Origin: an uncultured bacterium
GTDB taxonomy: Bacteria; Acidobacteriota; Aminicenantia; Aminicenantales; Saccharicenantaceae
Reading direction: 5' to 3'
Length of the DNA: 64,000 nucleotides
NCBI GenBank assembly: GCA_963805015.1
Contig: CAWDSL010000024.1
Location: forward strand, 180,408-244,407
Shown here: in pieces, positions 81 to 44,095 of the stretch
How the letters are laid out: every line of letters begins with the position of its first letter
How positions within the stretch are numbered: position 1 is the first letter of the stretch
Translations under genes and position numbers: made by a program
Notes under the pieces: generated by a model
Told to the model about the DNA's origin: nothing
Database searches by the model: none
What the model saw: the letters and a program-made list of their open reading frames with translations, nothing else

Positions 81-262
81 GGTACTCCTCCCATTTCCGG
101 GATTCCCTCTTGAGGCGGCGAGGGGATTATCCTCGTCCCTTTCGGGACAGGGTGAGCTAGTGGCCTAGCAGATCCCCGTTGCTGGAGGGGGGCGGCAGGG
201 AGCGGAGTCTGCGGAGCGACCATCAGCGCCGCCCCGGAGCGACCCGGAGGGACGGCGCTGGG

Positions 263-297
263 AAATATCTTAAGAAAGGGCTTTTGGAAGATATTTC
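263..297. promoter_or_regulatory. AT-rich perfect 10-bp inverted repeat GAAATATCTT-N15-AAGATATTTC (candidate operator or hairpin)
   Basis: Seen directly in the sequence; it is locally AT-rich within a 68% GC genome and lies about 80 nt upstream of the promoter at 379-407. Confidence 0.4.
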
Positions 298-378
298 GCA
301 GAAGCCCGGCTCCGAGTCGCTACGCCGTGCTTCTGCCCGGTCCGCTCCCAAGAGTCCGCTTCCCGTTCCACGGCCCGA

Positions 379-407
379 TTGACAGCCTGCGCCGGTGGCG
401 ATATAAC
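379..407 (+). promoter_or_regulatory. sigma-70 type promoter TTGACA-N17-TATAAC
   Basis: Consensus -35 hexamer, 17-nt spacer and a -10-like hexamer about 30 nt upstream of the ATG at 437; an RBS GGGAGGG precedes the start. Confidence 0.6.
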
Positions 408-5122: not shown

Positions 5123-6577
<1,455 letters not shown>

Positions 6578-6897
6578 CAGCGACTCCGGGCGACCGGGGG
6601 AAAGTGCCACAGAAAAGACACCGCCCTTCGGGGGGCGCAAGCCCCCCGGGGAGCAAGGGTGAAATGGCGAGGTAAGAGCTCACCGCCCCGGCGGCGACGC
6701 CGGGGGCAGGGCAAACCCCATCCGGAGCAAGGCCAAACGAGCCCCATTTTGGGATGGCCCGTCCCAGGGGGCGGGTCGGCCGCTGGATCCCGGGAGCAAT
6801 CCCGGGACTAGACAAATGACCGTCGCCCGCGCGAGCGGGGACAGGATCCGGCTTACGACCCGCTCCGGCCGTTCTTTTTCTTAAGGGAGGTCCGCGG

Positions 6898-15081: not shown

Positions 15082-15158
<77 letters not shown>

Positions 15159-24830: not shown

Positions 24831-25049
24831 TCAGTGGCAGGTGCTGCAGGAGCCTGACGAGCAGCTCTTGCAGCTCGAAGAAGAAGCCTTGATGCGGCTG
24901 GACCCGCCGCCGATGCCGAAGCCCGAGATGAGCTTCCGGACGTCGGCCGACCCGCACTTCTCGCAGACGACGTCCTTCTCTCTTCCTGCGTTGACGAGGC
25001 ACTCGAACCTCTTCCCGCACTTCAGGCACGAGTATTCATAAAGGGGCAT
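24831..25049 (-). CDS. FmdB-family zinc-ribbon protein (CxxC-CxxC plus Ser-rich tail, TIGR02605-like)
   Basis: MPLYEYSCLKCGKRFE...CEKCGS and a C-terminal SSSSCKSCSSGSCSTCH; 72 aa. Confidence 0.75.
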   Translation of the reverse strand: MPLYEYSCLKCGKRFECLVNAGREKDVVCEKCGSADVRKLISGFGIGGGSSRIKASSSSCKSCSSGSCSTCH

Positions 25050-25180
25050 GTCCTTAATATTTTATCCGATTCATCGCCCCTGGTCTATACGGTCCGAAGG
25101 GCAAGTCGATGGACGGCCGCAGGTTAGAGGATCCGAGGGGATCGTTGGAGAGAGCATTGCGGTGATTTAGCCGTTCCGGA

Positions 25181-25300
25181 GATGGACGAGGGAAATTTCC
25201 TTGGAAATCGTCAAAACGTGTTTGAGTGAGGCTTAGCGCAAGCCGAGCGAGTTGTTTTGGCGCCGAGTCCGTCGAACGGAACGGCGTGAAAAATCATCGC
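25181..25300. repeat. copy A of a repeated structured intergenic element (about 120 nt; the hairpins carry compensatory changes relative to copy B)
   Basis: Aligns with the reverse complement of 43301-43420 at about 80% identity. Hairpin 1 is ATTTCC-tt-GGAAAT and hairpin 2 is GGCTT-AGCGC-AAGCC. The flanking segments CAAAACGTGTTTGAG and CGAGCGAGTTGTTTTGGCGCC are conserved. Confidence 0.65.
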
Positions 25301-25362
25301 AGCGAACGGAGAGGATCCCCGAGGATCCCTAGCGGCCGGTCGGAGAATGCTCTGTTGAGCGC

Positions 25363-25836
25363 CTACTTGACCAGGGCGATGGCCTCGATCTCCACCTTGA
25401 CGTCGCGCGGCAGCCGGGCCACCTGGACCGCGGCCCGGGCCGGGTTGGGGGCCTTGAAGAACTCGGCGTAGACGGCGTTCATCTTGGCGAAGTCGTTCAT
25501 GTCCTGGAGGAAGACGGTCGTCTTGACGGCGTCGTCGAGCGACGATCCGGCGGCCTCGAGGACGGCCGACACGTTCTTGAGGACCTGGCGGGTCTGGTCC
25601 TCGATCGAACCGGTGTTGAGCTCGCCCGTGGCCGGGTCGATGGGGATCTGCCCCGAACAGAAGACGAACCCGTTGGCGACGATGCCTTGGGAATAAGGGC
25701 CGATGGCCTTCGGCGCCTTGTCGGTCTGGACTTGTTTCTTCACGATCTTGCTCCTTCCGATGCCGGCGAAAACCCGGGACACGGCGGCGGCCGCGAGCCC
25801 CGTTGCGGCGAGGAATCTCCGTCTATTCAATCTCAA
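25363..25836 (-). CDS. RidA/YjgF family enamine/imine deaminase with a twin-arginine signal peptide
   Basis: [25 protein letters not shown] Tat motif plus a YjgF/chorismate-mutase-like core (PYSQGIV...VFCSGQIP). Confidence 0.8.
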
Positions 25837-41880: not shown

Positions 41881-43169
41881 GGATAGATCCTGTACAGGAG
41901 CCGGGGGAAGGGGATGGTCTCGCGGATGTGCTTGATGCCGCAGATCCAGGAGACCATGCGCTCGATGCCCATGCCGAAGCCCGAGTGGGGGACGCTGCCG
42001 TACTTGCGCAGGTCGAGATACCACTCGTAGGCCTCGCGGGGCAGCTGGTGCTCCTCGAGGCGCCGTTCGAGCAGGGCCAGATCATGGATGCGCTGTCCGC
42101 CGCCGATGACCTCGCCGTAGCCCTCGGACGCCAGGAAGTCGACGCCCAGGACGACGTCCGGGTTCTCGGGGGCCGGCTGCATATAGAAGGCCTTGATGGC
42201 GGTGGGGAAGTGGGTCACGGCGACGGGCGACGCGTAGAGCTCGGAGATGATGGTCTCCTCGGGGGCGCCGAAATCGCCGCCCCATTCGATGGCCGACCCC
42301 TTTTCGCGGAGGATCGGGACGGCCTCGGTGTACGTCAGGCGGGGGAAGGGCTTGGCGATCGCTTCGAGCGGCCCCGGATCGCGTTCGAGCGTCTCGAGCT
42401 CGAGACGCCGTTTCGTCAGGACCCGCTCCATGATGAACAGGATGAGGTCCTCGCCGAGACCGATGACGTCCTCGAGACGGGCGAAGGCCACCTCGGGCTC
42501 GACCATCCAGAACTCGATGAGGTGGCGGCGGGTCTTGGACTTCTCGGCCCGGAAGGTCGGGCCGAAGCAGTAGACCTTGCCGAAGGCCATGGCCGTGGCC
42601 TCGTTGTAGAGCTGGCCGCTCTGGCTGAGGTAAGCCTTCTGGTCGAAATACTCGGTCTCGAACAGGGTCGTCGTCCCCTCGCAGGCGCTCGGGGTCAGGA
42701 TGGGCGTGTCCATCAGCCGGAAGCCGCGGCCGTCGAAGAAGTCGCGAATGGCCTTGACGACCTCGGCCCGGACGCGGAGGACGGCGTGCTGTTTCGAGGA
42801 CCGGAGCCAGAGATGGCGATGCTCCATCAGGAACGGGGTGCTGTGCTCCTTGAGGGTGATGGGGTAGTCGGCGGCGATCTGGACGATCTCGATCTCCTCC
42901 ATGGCCAGCTCGAAGCCGCCCGGCGCCCGCTTCTCGGCCCGGACCTTGCCCCGGACGACGAGCGAGGATTCCTGGGTCAGGCGGTCGAACTCCCGGAAGA
43001 GGGGGGTGTCCTTGTCGGCGCTGAAGGCCGTCGCCTGGATGAGGCCCGTCCCGTCGCGGACGAGCAGGAAGCGGACCTTGCCCGACGAGCGCTTATTGTA
43101 GACCCAGCCGCGGATCTCGACGTCCTGGCCTTCGTGGGCGGCGATGTCCTCGATGTAAACCCATTTCAT
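41877..43169 (-). CDS. asnS: asparaginyl-tRNA synthetase (class IIb)
   Basis: The start was reassigned to [23 protein letters not shown]; class II motifs ([22 protein letters not shown]); 430 aa. The promoter TTGCAG-N17-TATAAT ends 9-12 nt before the ATG, so the mRNA is probably leaderless. Confidence 0.88.
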
Positions 43170-43275
43170 AGTGCGCTCATTATAAGCGCAATGCGGCCTT
43201 TCTGCAACGACCCGGCTGAGGCTCGTCCGGATCTCCTGTCGGCTCGGAAGCCGGCCTCTCACTCATGGGAAAAGT

Positions 43276-43420
43276 TTGAAGACGCCTGGCCGTGCGCCGG
43301 GCTCGGCGCCAAAACAACTCGCTCGCCGTGCGCTACGGCTCGCTCAAACACGTTTTGTCGGTTTCCGGGGAAACGTCCCTCGCCCGGCACGCGTCCAAGC
43401 TAAACTTTTCCAAATCGTGA
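43276..43420. repeat. copy B of the repeated structured intergenic element (reverse orientation relative to copy A)
   Basis: The reverse complement aligns with 25181-25300. Hairpin 1 is GTTTCC-cc-GGAAAC and hairpin 2 is GCCGT-AGCGC-ACGGC, with compensatory changes relative to copy A. The conserved flanks CAAAACGTGTTTGAGCGAG and CGAGCGAGTTGTTTTGGCGCC are present. Confidence 0.65.
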
Positions 43421-43514
43421 TCGGCCTGCCTCCTCGCCTCCGGATTCTCGATCCGGACGGCCGCGACCGGACTTCTGCGGGAAGCCATTTGCGCCCGACC
43501 GGGGTAATATCGAT

Positions 43515-43543
43515 TTGTTGTAGCGACCACGGGAGCTTATAAT
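43515..43543 (+). promoter_or_regulatory. sigma-70 promoter TTGTTG-N17-TATAAT immediately upstream of the DUF4416 gene (leaderless configuration)
   Basis: The -10 element ends 9 nt before the ATG at 43553. Confidence 0.55.
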
Positions 43544-43552
43544 GCCTTCACA

Positions 43553-44095
43553 ATGGCCCAACCGAAGGAGTTCGCCCCGGTCAAGCTCGTCTGCGGCGTG
43601 ATCTATAAAGAGGATGCGCTCTACGACGAGGTCCGGAGACGGCTCGAGGCGGAGTGGGGGAGGGTTGACCTCGAGGGGCCGGATCTCCCCTTCGACCTGA
43701 CGGATCACTACGAGGCCGAGATGGGCCCCGGCCTGCGGCGGCGGTTCATGAGCTTCGAGCGGCTGGCGCGTCCCGAGACGCTGGCCGGCGCGAAGCTGTG
43801 GACGATCGGGATCGAAGACGGGATGCGGCGGGAGACGGGCGGCGGGGGGCGGTCCGTCAACATCGATCCGGGCTATCTCACGGCCGCGGCGCTCATCATG
43901 GCCACGGCCAAGGACTTCTCCCACCGCGTCCCCCTCGGCCAGGGGATCTACGCCCACCTCGAGTTCCTGTTCACGAGGACGGGGATCAAGGCGCTCGATT
44001 GGACCTATCCGGACCTTCGGCGCGCGCCGGCGCAAGCCTATTTCCGTTCGGTGAGGGAAGCCTACCTGCGGCAGACCGCCGGACGGCCGGTCTGA
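43553..44095 (+). CDS. hypothetical protein, DUF4416-like
   Basis: 180 aa; KLVCGVIYKED...PFDLTDHYEAEMG resembles DUF4416 family members. The family assignment comes from memory. Confidence 0.5.
   Translation: MAQPKEFAPVKLVCGVIYKEDALYDEVRRRLEAEWGRVDLEGPDLPFDLTDHYEAEMGPGLRRRFMSFERLARPETLAGAKLWTIGIEDGMRRETGGGGRSVNIDPGYLTAAALIMATAKDFSHRVPLGQGIYAHLEFLFTRTGIKALDWTYPDLRRAPAQAYFRSVREAYLRQTAGRPV

What the first reader, a model, noticed from the sequence alone, without database searches (positions are those of the whole stretch)
25181..25300. Repeated ~120-nt intergenic element with covarying hairpins: candidate novel structured ncRNA or REP-like repeat
Region 25181-25300 (+) and region 43301-43420 (reverse complement) align over about 115 nt at about 80% identity.
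- The differences fall so that two hairpins stay paired. Hairpin 1 is AUUUCC-uu-GGAAAU in copy A and GUUUCC-cc-GGAAAC in copy B (A-U to G-C swap).
- Hairpin 2 is GGCUU-AGCGC-AAGCC in copy A and GCCGU-AGCGC-ACGGC in copy B. Two stem positions carry compensatory changes and the loop is identical.
- The flanks CAAAACGUGUUUGAGYGAG and CGAGCGAGUUGUUUUGGCGCC are conserved and can form an outer CAAAAC/GUUUUG helix.
- Compensatory changes with conserved loops are the signature of selection on RNA or DNA secondary structure, not of chance similarity.
- Both copies sit in unusually long intergenic gaps: 313 nt between fmdB-like and ridA, and 383 nt between the divergent leaderless promoters of asnS and the DUF4416 gene.
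- In one orientation each copy lies 100-150 nt upstream of a small protein gene (fmdB-like; DUF4416). In the other orientation, copy B abuts the asnS promoter.
- No T-box or known riboswitch consensus is present.
Basis: seen in the sequence. Interest (0 to 1): 0.72.

Follow-up and report, generated by a model that had tools for sequence, protein, structure and literature searches.

The report
Modular hairpin repeat of Aminicenantes genomes
The two look-alike intergenic stretches are copies of a previously undescribed hairpin-forming repeat, about 250 bases long, that is scattered through the genomes of the uncultured Aminicenantes bacteria; it behaves more like a small mobile palindromic DNA element (REPIN/BIME-like) than like a conventional RNA gene.

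Summary
Copy A (25184-25287, +) matches copy B (43385-43282, -) at 82.7% over 104 nt (E = 7e-26). Both reported hairpins carry compensatory changes.

The element is about twice the reported size. It is an imperfect hairpin ("rod") of about 220-260 nt: A is about 25101-25350 (+) and B about 43220-43462 (-). No Rfam family matches either strand.

An exact-core scan found 111 copies in 32 assemblies, nearly all labelled Aminicenantes, with at least 5-9 copies per genome.

- **Structure:** 96-97% of cells are paired, and 22-24 pairs per type show double compensatory changes.
- **Strand:** the fold is strand-specific, with G-U far outnumbering A-C and conserved tandem G-A pairs.
- **Modules:** the reported "core" is one of several interchangeable apical modules, set on at least three types of basal rod.
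- **Turnover:** loci flanked by the same two genes differ between genomes in rod type, apex, orientation and presence.
- **Neighbours:** flanking genes are housekeeping genes. No sigma-70-like promoter drives the element and no intrinsic terminator follows it.
- **Position:** the 3' end sits 4-8 nt upstream of the -35 box of the next gene, or abuts a convergent stop codon.

Best reading: a non-autonomous REPIN/BIME-like palindromic repeat whose fold is selected in a single-stranded intermediate. An RNA role remains possible.

The parts
25101..25350 (+). Copy A, whole hairpin element (type A basal rod plus three-way-junction apex)
   Evidence: RNA fold -117.9 kcal/mol, z = -6.3. DNA fold -56.6 kcal/mol against -46.5 for the opposite strand. 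Profile match 25123-25347, E = 2e-62.
25184..25270 (+). Copy A apical domain. It is bounded by GGAC-GA-GG and CC-GA-GTCC. It contains a side hairpin (25195-25208), the stem CAAAAC/GTTTTG, the asymmetric loop GTGTTT/GTT, the motif GA-GY-GA / GA-GC-GA, and a terminal hairpin (25230-25244) with loop AGCGC.
   Evidence: On 93 copies, 36 pairs are 97.5% paired, and 20 pairs change on both sides against 8.2 in shuffles.
25123..25183 (+). Copy A, 5' arm of the type A basal rod (GGATCCGAGGGGATCGTTGGAGAGAGCATTGCGGTGATTTAGCCGTTCCGG...)
   Evidence: Consensus and structure of 44 type A copies. The same arm occurs with other apices in metagenome loci.
25271..25347 (+). Copy A, 3' arm of the type A basal rod (...CGGAACGGCGTGAAAAATCATCGCAGCGAACGGAGAGGATCCCCGAGGATCCC...GCGGCC). 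It ends 15 nt before the ridA stop codon (25363-25365 on the - strand).
   Evidence: This arm is conserved at the fmdB-ridA locus in L162 and L142, while the apex differs.
43220..43462 (-). Copy B, whole hairpin element (type B basal rod plus the same three-way-junction apex)
   Evidence: RNA fold -132 kcal/mol, z = -4.9. Profile match 43236-43450, E = 9e-54.
43299..43385 (-). Copy B apical domain (GGGC-GA-GG ... CC-GA-GCCC), homologous to 25184-25270
43179..43207 (-). Context: the asnS promoter. The -35 box TTGCAG is at 43207-43202 and the -10 box TATAAT at 43184-43179. The ATG at 43169 lies 9 nt after the -10 box. The -35 box begins about 13 nt after the 3' end of copy B.
   Evidence: Read. 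Own position-weight scan gives 14.5 bits. The same arrangement is seen in L038.
25059..25087 (-). Context: promoter of the FmdB-like gene (TAGACC-17-TAAAAT, ATG at 25049). It points away from the 5' end of copy A and lies about 15-35 nt from it.

Best explanation
The two stretches are copies of an interspersed, non-autonomous, hairpin-forming repeat that is specific to the Aminicenantes lineage (class Aminicenantia of Acidobacteriota).

**Anatomy.** Each copy is an imperfect palindrome of 220-260 bp, and some copies are longer. It is built in layers. A basal rod comes in at least three sequence types, and its helices are separated by tandem G-A/G-A mismatches. An apical module sits on top of the rod. 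It occurs on rods of types A, B and C. Type A rods also carry several other apices.

**Shown here.**
- The fold is conserved through many compensatory changes.
- The fold is conserved on one strand only.
- The copies lie in housekeeping intergenic regions.
- Across genomes the copies are gained, lost, flipped and re-capped.

**Inferred mechanism.** Like REPINs, BIMEs and other palindromic mini-elements, the family probably persists because copies that keep the hairpin on the 'top' strand can be recognised and copied or moved by an enzyme supplied in trans. That enzyme would act on a single-stranded (DNA, or possibly RNA) hairpin. New modules probably land in the apex of resident hairpins. Copies survive where they do little harm, just upstream of the -35 box of a promoter or just after a stop codon. 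Any effect on the neighbouring promoter is secondary and untested.
For: **Copy number and range.** The core pattern gave 111 copies with the fixed 44-nt spacing in 112 stretches, from 32 assemblies that are nearly all labelled Aminicenantes. There are no matches in plasmids, phages or viral contigs.

**Structure.**
- Type A (n = 44): 62 pairs, 96.9% paired, 24 pairs with double compensatory changes.
- Type B (n = 38): 63 pairs, 96.7% paired, 22 such pairs.
- Controls with the 3' partner slid by 1-2 columns pair in only 31-46% of cells.
- The counting tool on 93 copies gave 20 pairs changed on both sides against 8.2 in shuffles, with 0 of 500 shuffles as high.
- Pairing extends to about 130 nt on either side of the centre.

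**Strand specificity.**
- G-U against A-C counts are 157:13 (type A), 141:18 (type B) and 182:10 (inner 36 pairs).
- The given strand folds better than its complement in 98 of 101 copies, by 18.6 kcal/mol on average. This also holds with DNA parameters for copy A.
- A cruciform alone would not favour one strand.

**Modularity.**
- A scan with the 3' arm of the type A rod recovered 108 elements. The other 89 lack the exact core: most keep the type A rod with a different apex, two are near-variants of the core, and some are mosaic forms.
- Other-apex type A elements in genome loci carry a short REP-like palindrome (GGGACAYGTAC..GTACRTGTCCC) nested in the apex.
- At the fmdB-ridA locus of copy A, the 3' arm is conserved in L162 and L142 (76-83% identical genomes) but the apex differs. 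L162 also keeps the 5' half of a type B core element.

**Turnover.** Of 21 groups of loci that share the same two flanking genes, 7 carry different rod types and 4 carry the element in opposite orientations. One example is asnS-DUF4416, where L074 is flipped relative to the window and L038. Two empty sites were found.

**Neighbours.** By inspection of their sequences they look like housekeeping genes (mnmE, tolB, ileS, efp, ispF, lepA, thyX, ffh and others), not transposases.

**Not an ordinary RNA gene.**
- Sigma-70-like promoters in the folding direction give 6 hits upstream against 59 downstream across 90 copies.
- In L094 only 18 nt separate the -35 box of the divergent gene from the element.
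- No terminator-like site follows either window copy.

**Precedent.** REPINs are hairpin doublets with conserved ends, a variable spacer and frequent compensatory changes, predicted to fold 'in ssDNA or mRNA' (PMC3116915).
Against: - No mobilising enzyme was found. There is no IS200-type TnpA in the 1.7 Mb of DNA held, although this is a small and biased sample and whole genomes could not be searched.
- No target-site duplication or fixed target sequence could be read at the junctions.
- Orientation does not follow GC skew (45 of 97) or the general gene strand. This differs from IS200/IS605-type single-strand transposition, which is coupled to lagging-strand synthesis.
- Many copies are old and inherited vertically: 85 of 89 comparisons between loci with the same flanking genes are occupied.
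- The apical core is extremely conserved. In a sample chosen independently of the core, 19 of 21 core-type apices match all 22 pattern positions. This degree of conservation could equally mean a function for the host.
- The orientation-specific placement of the 3' end 4-8 nt from a -35 box (16 copies at 11 distinct loci) is not explained by passive tolerance. The same rule holds for type A rods with other apices.
Confidence: 0.58

Rival explanations
1. A host-selected cis element of promoter regions. The rod sits immediately upstream of the -35 box of (often leaderless) genes. It might act as an insulator or road-block against incoming transcription. Alternatively it might be a supercoil-sensitive hairpin that changes promoter geometry when extruded. 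Its repeat-like spread would then be a means of recruiting this function.
For: - 84 of 88 fully classifiable copies have at least one gene start facing them. Divergent regions hold 43% of copies and convergent regions only 4 of 88.
- The 3' end lies 4-8 nt from a -35 box in 16 copies at 11 distinct loci. In total, 66 of 99 copies have a co-directional promoter within 230 nt downstream.
- The same rule holds for 72 type A rods with other apices.
- The divergent promoter on the 5' side never abuts the element.
- When the element is flipped in L074, the spacing asymmetry flips with it.
- Copies are retained at the same loci across genomes that are 76-86% identical.
Against: - Empty sites exist next to the same genes.
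- Rod type, apex and orientation are exchangeable at one locus, which is unusual for a tuned regulatory site.
- About a third of copies have their 3' end against a stop codon and not a promoter.
- A duplex or cruciform role does not explain the one-strand bias (G-U far above A-C, and conserved G-A tandems).
- A terminator role predicts enrichment between convergent genes, and the opposite is seen.
Confidence: 0.2
2. A family of independently expressed structured small RNAs. These would be rods of about 250 nt with a conserved three-way-junction head, for example a protein sponge or guide-like RNA, encoded at many loci.
For: - The fold is strand-specific, with G-U pairs, tandem G-A motifs, a conserved asymmetric internal loop and a conserved AGCGN loop. 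Covariation is strong.
- The apical domain is a three-way junction and not a simple palindrome.
- The 5' side always keeps 25-60 nt of non-conserved spacer, enough room for a promoter, while the 3' side has none.
- The upstream neighbour is divergent in 73 of 96 copies, as expected for a separate transcription unit.
- No Rfam family matches, so the RNA would be new.
Against: - Almost no sigma-70-like promoter lies upstream in the right direction: 6 hits against 59 downstream.
- The upstream spacer is not conserved even between loci with the same flanking genes, and it can be as short as 18 nt.
- No intrinsic terminator follows either window copy.
- Many copies per genome with swappable heads and rods, fragments and nested palindromes are not typical of RNA genes.
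- REPIN-type DNA elements show the same kind of compensatory changes (PMC3116915).
Confidence: 0.14
3. Chance similarity or an assembly artefact, such as a chimeric join or a duplicated contig end.
For: None found.
Against: - E = 7e-26 within the window.
- 111 copies lie in independent assemblies from different studies, inside long contigs and between conserved genes.
- A further 108 related elements lie in metagenome contigs.
Confidence: 0.01

Closest known systems
REPINs (REP doublets forming hairpins) mobilised by RAYT transposases
   Same: - Intergenic hairpin made of two inverted conserved arms around a less conserved spacer.
- Frequent compensatory changes.
- Predicted to fold in ssDNA or mRNA.
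- Dozens of copies per genome, long vertical persistence in a lineage, and clusters and remnants (PMC3116915, PMC3337134).
- Type A rods with variable apices fit this layout.
   Different: - 220-350 bp, against about 70-110 bp for REPINs.
- Several stacked helical layers with tandem G-A mismatches.
- One 'spacer', the three-way-junction core, is more conserved than the arms and is shared by three types of arm.
- No RAYT has been identified.
- Copy number is lower (at least 5-9 seen per genome).
- Placement next to -35 boxes depends on orientation.
BIMEs (bacterial interspersed mosaic elements) of enterobacteria
   Same: Mosaic combinations of palindromic units and other motifs in intergenic DNA. 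Units are nested or combined in different arrangements (own knowledge).
   Different: BIMEs sit mostly at the 3' ends of operons and between convergent genes. This family avoids convergent regions (4 of 88) and sits upstream of promoters. There is no sequence similarity.
ERIC/IRU elements and Correia, BOX and RUP-type MITEs
   Same: Imperfect palindromes of 100-200 bp in intergenic regions. They are present, absent or inverted at the same locus in related genomes. Some variants carry internal insertions, and some lie close to promoters (own knowledge; reviews PMC10969869 and PMC3184786 are listed but were not read).
   Different: No terminal inverted repeat plus target-site duplication could be defined. 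The fold is strongly biased to one strand. The apex is a three-way junction. The family is restricted to Aminicenantes.
Integron attC sites and other folded single-strand recombination sites
   Same: The structure, more than the sequence, of an imperfect palindrome is conserved. One strand is the active one (own knowledge).
   Different: The copies are not in cassette arrays. The neighbours are housekeeping genes. The RYYYAAC/GTTRRRY boxes are absent at the ends (read). The element is 2-4 times longer.
6S RNA and other rod-like bacterial RNAs
   Same: A long irregular hairpin of about 200 nt.
   Different: No match to the Rfam 6S models at E <= 10. There is no large central bubble. There are many copies per genome and no promoter of its own was detected.

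Membership tests
Any Rfam RNA family (release 15) | Covariance-model score at or above the family's gathering threshold | tested here: not met
   The whole window at gathering thresholds gives only RNase P and one tRNA. Both copies at E <= 10 give only noise: MIR2933 at 17 bits against a threshold of 70, and sR32 at 10.7 against 40.
REPIN / REP-RAYT system | Two inverted conserved arms forming a hairpin around a variable spacer, with compensatory changes | tested here: met
   The arms of the type A rod are conserved with at least four different apices. Each type has 22-24 pairs with double compensatory changes.
REPIN / REP-RAYT system | A cognate RAYT (Y1 HUH transposase) gene in the genome, usually flanked by the repeats | not testable with these tools
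That sample is small and biased.
REPIN / REP-RAYT system | Short REP units (about 20-40 nt) and a doublet of about 70-110 nt, in tens to hundreds of copies | tested here: not met
   Elements are 220-350 nt. At least 5-9 core-type copies were seen per genome, a lower bound because the scan was truncated.
Classical MITE (DDE-transposase derived) | Terminal inverted repeats flanked by a target-site duplication of fixed length | tested here: not met
   The junctions of 20 short-form copies show no direct repeat and no fixed flanking sequence. The two empty-site comparisons are too diverged to define a duplication.
Classical MITE (DDE-transposase derived) | A related full-length IS with the same ends | tested here: inconclusive
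   No transposase lies next to any of 105 copies. Apparent 'half-elements' turned out to be complete rods with other apices. Whole genomes were not searched.
Integron attC | R''/L''...L'/R' boxes (RYYYAAC...GTTRRRY) at the ends, in arrays of promoterless cassettes | tested here: not met
   The ends read GGC-GA-GG...CC-GA-GCC. Copies are dispersed singly among housekeeping genes.
Independent sRNA gene | Own promoter upstream and a terminator downstream, on the folding strand | tested here: not met
   6 forward promoter-like hits upstream against 59 downstream, across 90 copies. No promoter or terminator for it was found in either window copy. Only sigma-70-type promoters and intrinsic terminators were tested.
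Intrinsic or bidirectional terminator hairpin | Located at gene 3' ends, enriched between convergent genes, with a GC stem followed by a T-run | tested here: not met
   Convergent regions hold 4 of 88 copies. No T-run terminator was found in either window copy.

The most novel reading that the evidence does not exclude
The rods may be a new class of strand-specific nucleic-acid structures attached to promoters. One form of this idea is an abundant family of about 250-nt RNAs with a conserved three-way-junction head, made from unconventional promoters. Another is a single-stranded DNA hairpin, extruded from the non-template strand right at position -40, that the cell uses to set the activity of leaderless housekeeping promoters. 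In either case their mobility would be how the function is distributed around the genome.
Probability: 0.15. Interest if true: 0.8.

Novelty: new variant of a known kind. Interest (0 to 1): 0.5.

Why it matters
**For annotation.** Aminicenantes (OP8) are abundant, uncultured sediment and subsurface bacteria whose non-coding DNA has hardly been examined. This work defines a repeat superfamily that marks the lineage. It can be used to recognise mislabelled MAGs, and it warns annotators that these intergenic hairpins are not riboswitches or sRNA genes by default.

**For biology.** Two features go beyond the textbook picture of REP/MITE elements. The first is the layered, re-cappable architecture, in which new palindromic modules appear in the apex of resident hairpins. 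The second is the orientation-specific seating of the 3' end a few bases upstream of the -35 box. Either the insertion machinery reads promoter architecture, or the host uses the hairpin at promoters. Both ideas can be tested with metatranscriptomes and reporter assays.

**For method.** The case shows that compensatory changes, even with G-U bias, do not by themselves separate an RNA from a single-stranded-DNA element.

Tried and rejected
- **Known RNA families:** Rfam at gathering thresholds and at E <= 10 on both strands found nothing.
- **More copies in the window:** exact and fuzzy patterns and an nhmmer profile found only the two.
- **Own promoter:** a position-weight scan for sigma-70 promoters, the tool's consensus scan, and alignment of three loci with the same flanking genes show no conserved promoter upstream of the element. 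AT-rich hexamers seen by eye 4-9 nt before short-form copies lacked a -35 partner, and an AT-content profile showed no peak there.
- **Terminator:** no T-run terminator in either window copy, and convergent regions are depleted.
- **Target-site duplication or fixed target:** none.
- **Conserved extension beyond the rod:** blastn among 5' and 3' flanks found similarity in only about 1-1.5% of copy pairs (39 and 63 of 4095), which were not checked against the shared-locus groups.
- **Replication-strand bias:** none.
- **Boundaries from single-sequence MFE:** too noisy to use.
- **Half-elements as ends of a full-length IS:** they are complete type A rods with other apices.
- **IS200-type transposase in the DNA held:** none.
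- **Similar DNA elsewhere:** none in plasmids, phages or viral contigs.
- **Literature:** no paper combines Aminicenantes with structured RNA motifs or REP elements.
- **Source contig of the window:** the DUF4416 protein is not on record.
- **Conserved small ORF inside the element:** copy A has a 15-codon ORF, but other copies lack its ATG (read).
- **Gene caller:** my first codon-usage gene caller picked shadow frames and was replaced by an iterated one.
Full report
**1. Checking the observation**

The two regions are as described. A BLAST of the fmdB-ridA spacer against the whole window gives one non-self hit. It joins 25184-25287 (+) to 43385-43282 (-) at 82.7% identity over 104 ungapped nt, with E = 7e-26. 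The next best hit has E = 0.19. The two conserved flanks each occur exactly twice in 64 kb and never in 100 shuffles.

Both small hairpins and their compensatory differences are present. Pfam confirms the neighbouring genes: Zn_ribbon_8 (FmdB-like), RidA, an AsnS-type class II synthetase and DUF4416.

One correction is needed.

**2. The element is larger than reported**

Outside the similar core the two copies differ in sequence, but each is self-complementary. Each copy folds into one long imperfect hairpin:

| Copy | Region folded | Strand | Energy (kcal/mol) | z-score |
|---|---|---|---|---|
| A | 25095-25350 | + | -117.9 | -6.3 |
| B | 43215-43480 | - | -132 | -4.9 |

The opposite strands fold less well, at -89.4 and -120 kcal/mol. 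With DNA parameters copy A gives -56.6 against -46.5 kcal/mol.

Rfam has no match on either strand, at gathering thresholds or at E <= 10.

**3. Relatives**

An exact scan of one genome per species used AACGTGTTTGAG-N(8-38)-GAGTTGTTTT.

- 111 matches have the same 44-nt span.
- They come from 32 assemblies. Most are labelled Candidatus Aminicenantes. Some are labelled Acidobacteria or, probably wrongly, 'uncultured Eubacteriales'.
- Four matches with other spacings, in a Pseudomonadota MAG (two), Polaromonas and a Bathyarchaeota MAG, are close to the few chance matches I estimated beforehand.
- Single genomes hold at least 5-9 copies.
- The window shares 76-86% nucleotide identity and gene order with several of these loci. 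It therefore comes from this lineage.
- Nothing similar is found in plasmids, phages or viral contigs.

**4. Anatomy**

Aligned copies show a conserved apical domain of about 87 nt. It consists of:

- an outer stem closed by GA-GA;
- a side hairpin (GUUUC-NNNN-GAAAC) that covaries freely;
- the stem GCCAAAAC/GUUUUGGC;
- an asymmetric loop, GUGUUU opposite GUU;
- the motif GA-GC-GA opposite GA-GC-GA, which in some copies is replaced by Watson-Crick pairs (CUC/GAG or CUU/AAG);
- a terminal hairpin with loop AGCGN.

Below this lies a basal rod that comes in at least three sequence types:

| Type | 5' arm ... 3' arm |
|---|---|
| A | GCGGTGATTTAG...AAATCACCGC |
| B | TTGGAAAAGTTTAG...AAACTTTTCC |
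| C | GTAGGGAAAGTTTAG...GAACTTTCCC |

Further outer layers are present in some copies. Pairing across the centre is frequent out to about 130 nt on each side and then falls to background.

**5. Covariation and strand**

| Set | Pairs | Cells paired | Pairs with double compensatory changes | Partner-slid controls |
|---|---|---|---|---|
| Type A (n = 44) | 62 | 96.9% | 24 | 31-46% paired |
| Type B (n = 38) | 63 | 96.7% | 22 | 31-46% paired |

On the 93-copy alignment the counting tool gives 97.5% pairing for the 36 inner pairs. Twenty pairs change on both sides, against 8.2 ± 1.5 in shuffles (0 of 500 as high) and 7-10 in slid controls.

The 22 positions of the search pattern are invariant by construction. 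In a sample chosen independently of the core, 19 of 21 core-type apices still match all 22 positions.

The fold belongs to one strand:

- G-U pairs outnumber A-C mismatches 157:13, 141:18 and 182:10.
- The given strand is more stable than its complement in 98 of 101 copies.
- The conserved G-A tandems would be C-T mismatches on the other strand.

A duplex or cruciform role alone cannot produce this bias. A single-stranded state of the top strand, either RNA or DNA, must be under selection.

**6. Genomic context**

I used a self-trained codon-usage gene caller. All 105 full-length copies are intergenic.

- The upstream neighbour points away in 73 of 96 cases.
- The downstream neighbour is co-directional in 64 of 97 cases.
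- Divergent regions hold 38 of 88 copies. Convergent regions hold only 4 of 88.
- When the downstream gene is convergent, its stop codon lies within about 20 nt of the element's 3' end. Copy A and ridA follow this pattern.

A sigma-70 position-weight scan of 90 copies gave these hits:

| Region | Forward hits | Reverse hits |
|---|---|---|
| Just downstream of the element | 59 | 4 |
| Upstream of the element | 6 | 44 |

- The upstream reverse hits are the promoters of the divergent genes. They never abut the 5' end.
- In 16 copies at 11 distinct loci, the -35 box starts 4-8 nt after the terminal CCGAGSC.
- For copy B, the asnS promoter (TTGCAG-17-TATAAT, ATG 9 nt later) begins about 13 nt after the rod.
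- No terminator-like site, and no promoter for the element, is found in either window copy.
- Orientation is unrelated to GC skew or to the overall gene strand.

**7. Evolutionary behaviour**

The neighbours are housekeeping genes (mnmE, tolB, ileS, efp, ispF, lepA, thyX, ffh, nadB, queC and others; identified by eye). No transposase recurs among them.

Many loci recur across genomes with the same two flanking genes. Among 21 such groups:

- 7 carry different rod types;
- 4 carry the element in opposite orientations.

In the asnS-DUF4416 spacer, the window and L038 point to asnS while L074 points to DUF4416. The short-3'/long-5' spacing flips along with the element.

Two empty sites exist: L067 against L075, L096 and L032, and L064 against L093. 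No target-site duplication could be read.

**8. A modular superfamily**

Weak profile hits near some copies turned out to be complete type A rods with other apices.

A metagenome scan with the 3' arm of the type A rod (CACCGCAGCGAACGRAGRNGAT) gave 108 elements. The other 89 lack the exact core. Two of them are near-variants of it. Most of the rest keep the type A rod under another apex, most often ...CGGGACGGATACGCGGACTCCTCCCATCGGATCCGGACCGGG.... Some are mosaic forms that contain a short REP-like palindrome GGGACAYGTAC..GTACRTGTCCC or an AAATATCT..AGATATTT module.

These elements obey the same promoter rule.

At the window's own fmdB-ridA locus, the 3' arm of the type A rod is conserved next to the ridA stop codon in L162 and L142, but the apex differs:

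- the window has the three-way-junction core;
- L162 has the common alternative apex, plus the leftover 5' half of a type B core element;
- L142 has a plain hairpin.

The rod is therefore old at this site, and its cap has been exchanged.

**9. Interpretation**

The combination of features matches interspersed palindromic repeats:

- many copies per genome;
- conserved inverted arms around exchangeable middles;
- nesting, remnants, and gain, loss and inversion at fixed loci;
- housekeeping neighbours;
- no own promoter or terminator detected.

The closest known kinds are REPINs and BIMEs. In REPINs, compensatory changes in a hairpin 'in ssDNA or mRNA' are already documented (PMC3116915).

I therefore read the element as a non-autonomous REPIN/BIME-like repeat whose top-strand hairpin is what gets recognised.

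- **Shown:** the fold, its strand, the modularity, the turnover and the promoter-adjacent position.
- **Inferred:** mobilisation by an enzyme supplied in trans, through a single-stranded intermediate, and insertion of new modules into hairpin apices.

**10. What does not fit neatly**

- No enzyme was found (whole genomes could not be searched).
- There is no replication-strand bias.
- The apical domain is very strongly conserved.
- The 3' end is seated next to -35 boxes in an orientation-specific way that passive tolerance does not explain.

These points keep two rivals alive. One is a host-used cis element at promoters. The other is an expressed structured RNA with an unconventional promoter. 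Transcript mapping and a genome-wide search for a linked recombinase would decide between the three readings.

Noticed in passing
window 181-380: A different palindromic repeat lies at the start of the window (...GGGAAATATCTTAAGAAAGGGCTTTTGGAAGATATTTCGCAGAAGCCCGGCTCCGAGTCGCT...; inverted repeat I1, 235-324). It shares the AAATATCT..AGATATTT..GGCTCCGAG..CGCT layout with modules found beside or inside type A rod elements in metagenome loci L166, L178 and L179.
   Followed up: partly
window 43167-43207, 43535-43553 and 25047-25087; many loci: Promoters here have clear TTGACA- and TATAAT-like boxes, with the start codon only 7-10 nt after the -10 box (asnS, DUF4416, fmdB-like, and many genes in the loci). 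This suggests that leaderless mRNAs are common in this lineage.
   Followed up: partly
L109:959-982, L101:2902-2925, L014:4694, L032:4427 and others: A short REP-like palindrome, GGGACAYGTAC-N(2-30)-GTACRTGTCCC, occurs 36 times in the 1.7 Mb of DNA held. In L109 and L101 it sits nested in the apex of a type A rod. There is no copy in the window.
   Followed up: partly
L020, L040, L052, L080, L013, L095, L045 (3' arm of the element): In seven copies the inner 3' arm is replaced by an unrelated hairpin, CGCTGGGGC...GGATCC...GCCCCAGCG. The 5' arm is left without its partner. This looks like a further palindromic unit inserted into, or recombined with, the element.
   Followed up: no
L162:3488-3935 (also L195, L208): A chimeric locus at the fmdB-ridA site. 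The 5' half of a type B core element breaks off inside the side hairpin (...GGACGAGGGCAGTTTCAGTGG|CTGGCC...). It is followed by a complete type A rod with another apex.
   Followed up: partly
L003-L005, L009, L014, L016 and others (assemblies CAZIQR, CAYOYQ, CAZGJS, CAZZCH, CAZNPB, CAZFZU, CAZFBC): MAGs whose records are titled 'uncultured Eubacteriales' carry multiple copies of this Aminicenantes repeat, with the same neighbouring genes. Their taxonomic label is probably wrong.
   Followed up: no
window 6494-6870 and 15082-15155: Bacterial RNase P RNA class A (262 bits) and one tRNA are the only Rfam matches at gathering thresholds in the window.
   Followed up: no
5' junction of short-form copies (L009, L016, L049, L072, L094, L098, L108, L110 and others): An AT-rich hexamer (TATTGA, TATCGA, TTATGA, AATAAA, TATTAA and similar) lies 4-9 nt before the first G of the element in about 13 of 20 short-form copies. 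It has no -35 partner. It may be a displaced upstream promoter element or an insertion preference.
   Followed up: partly
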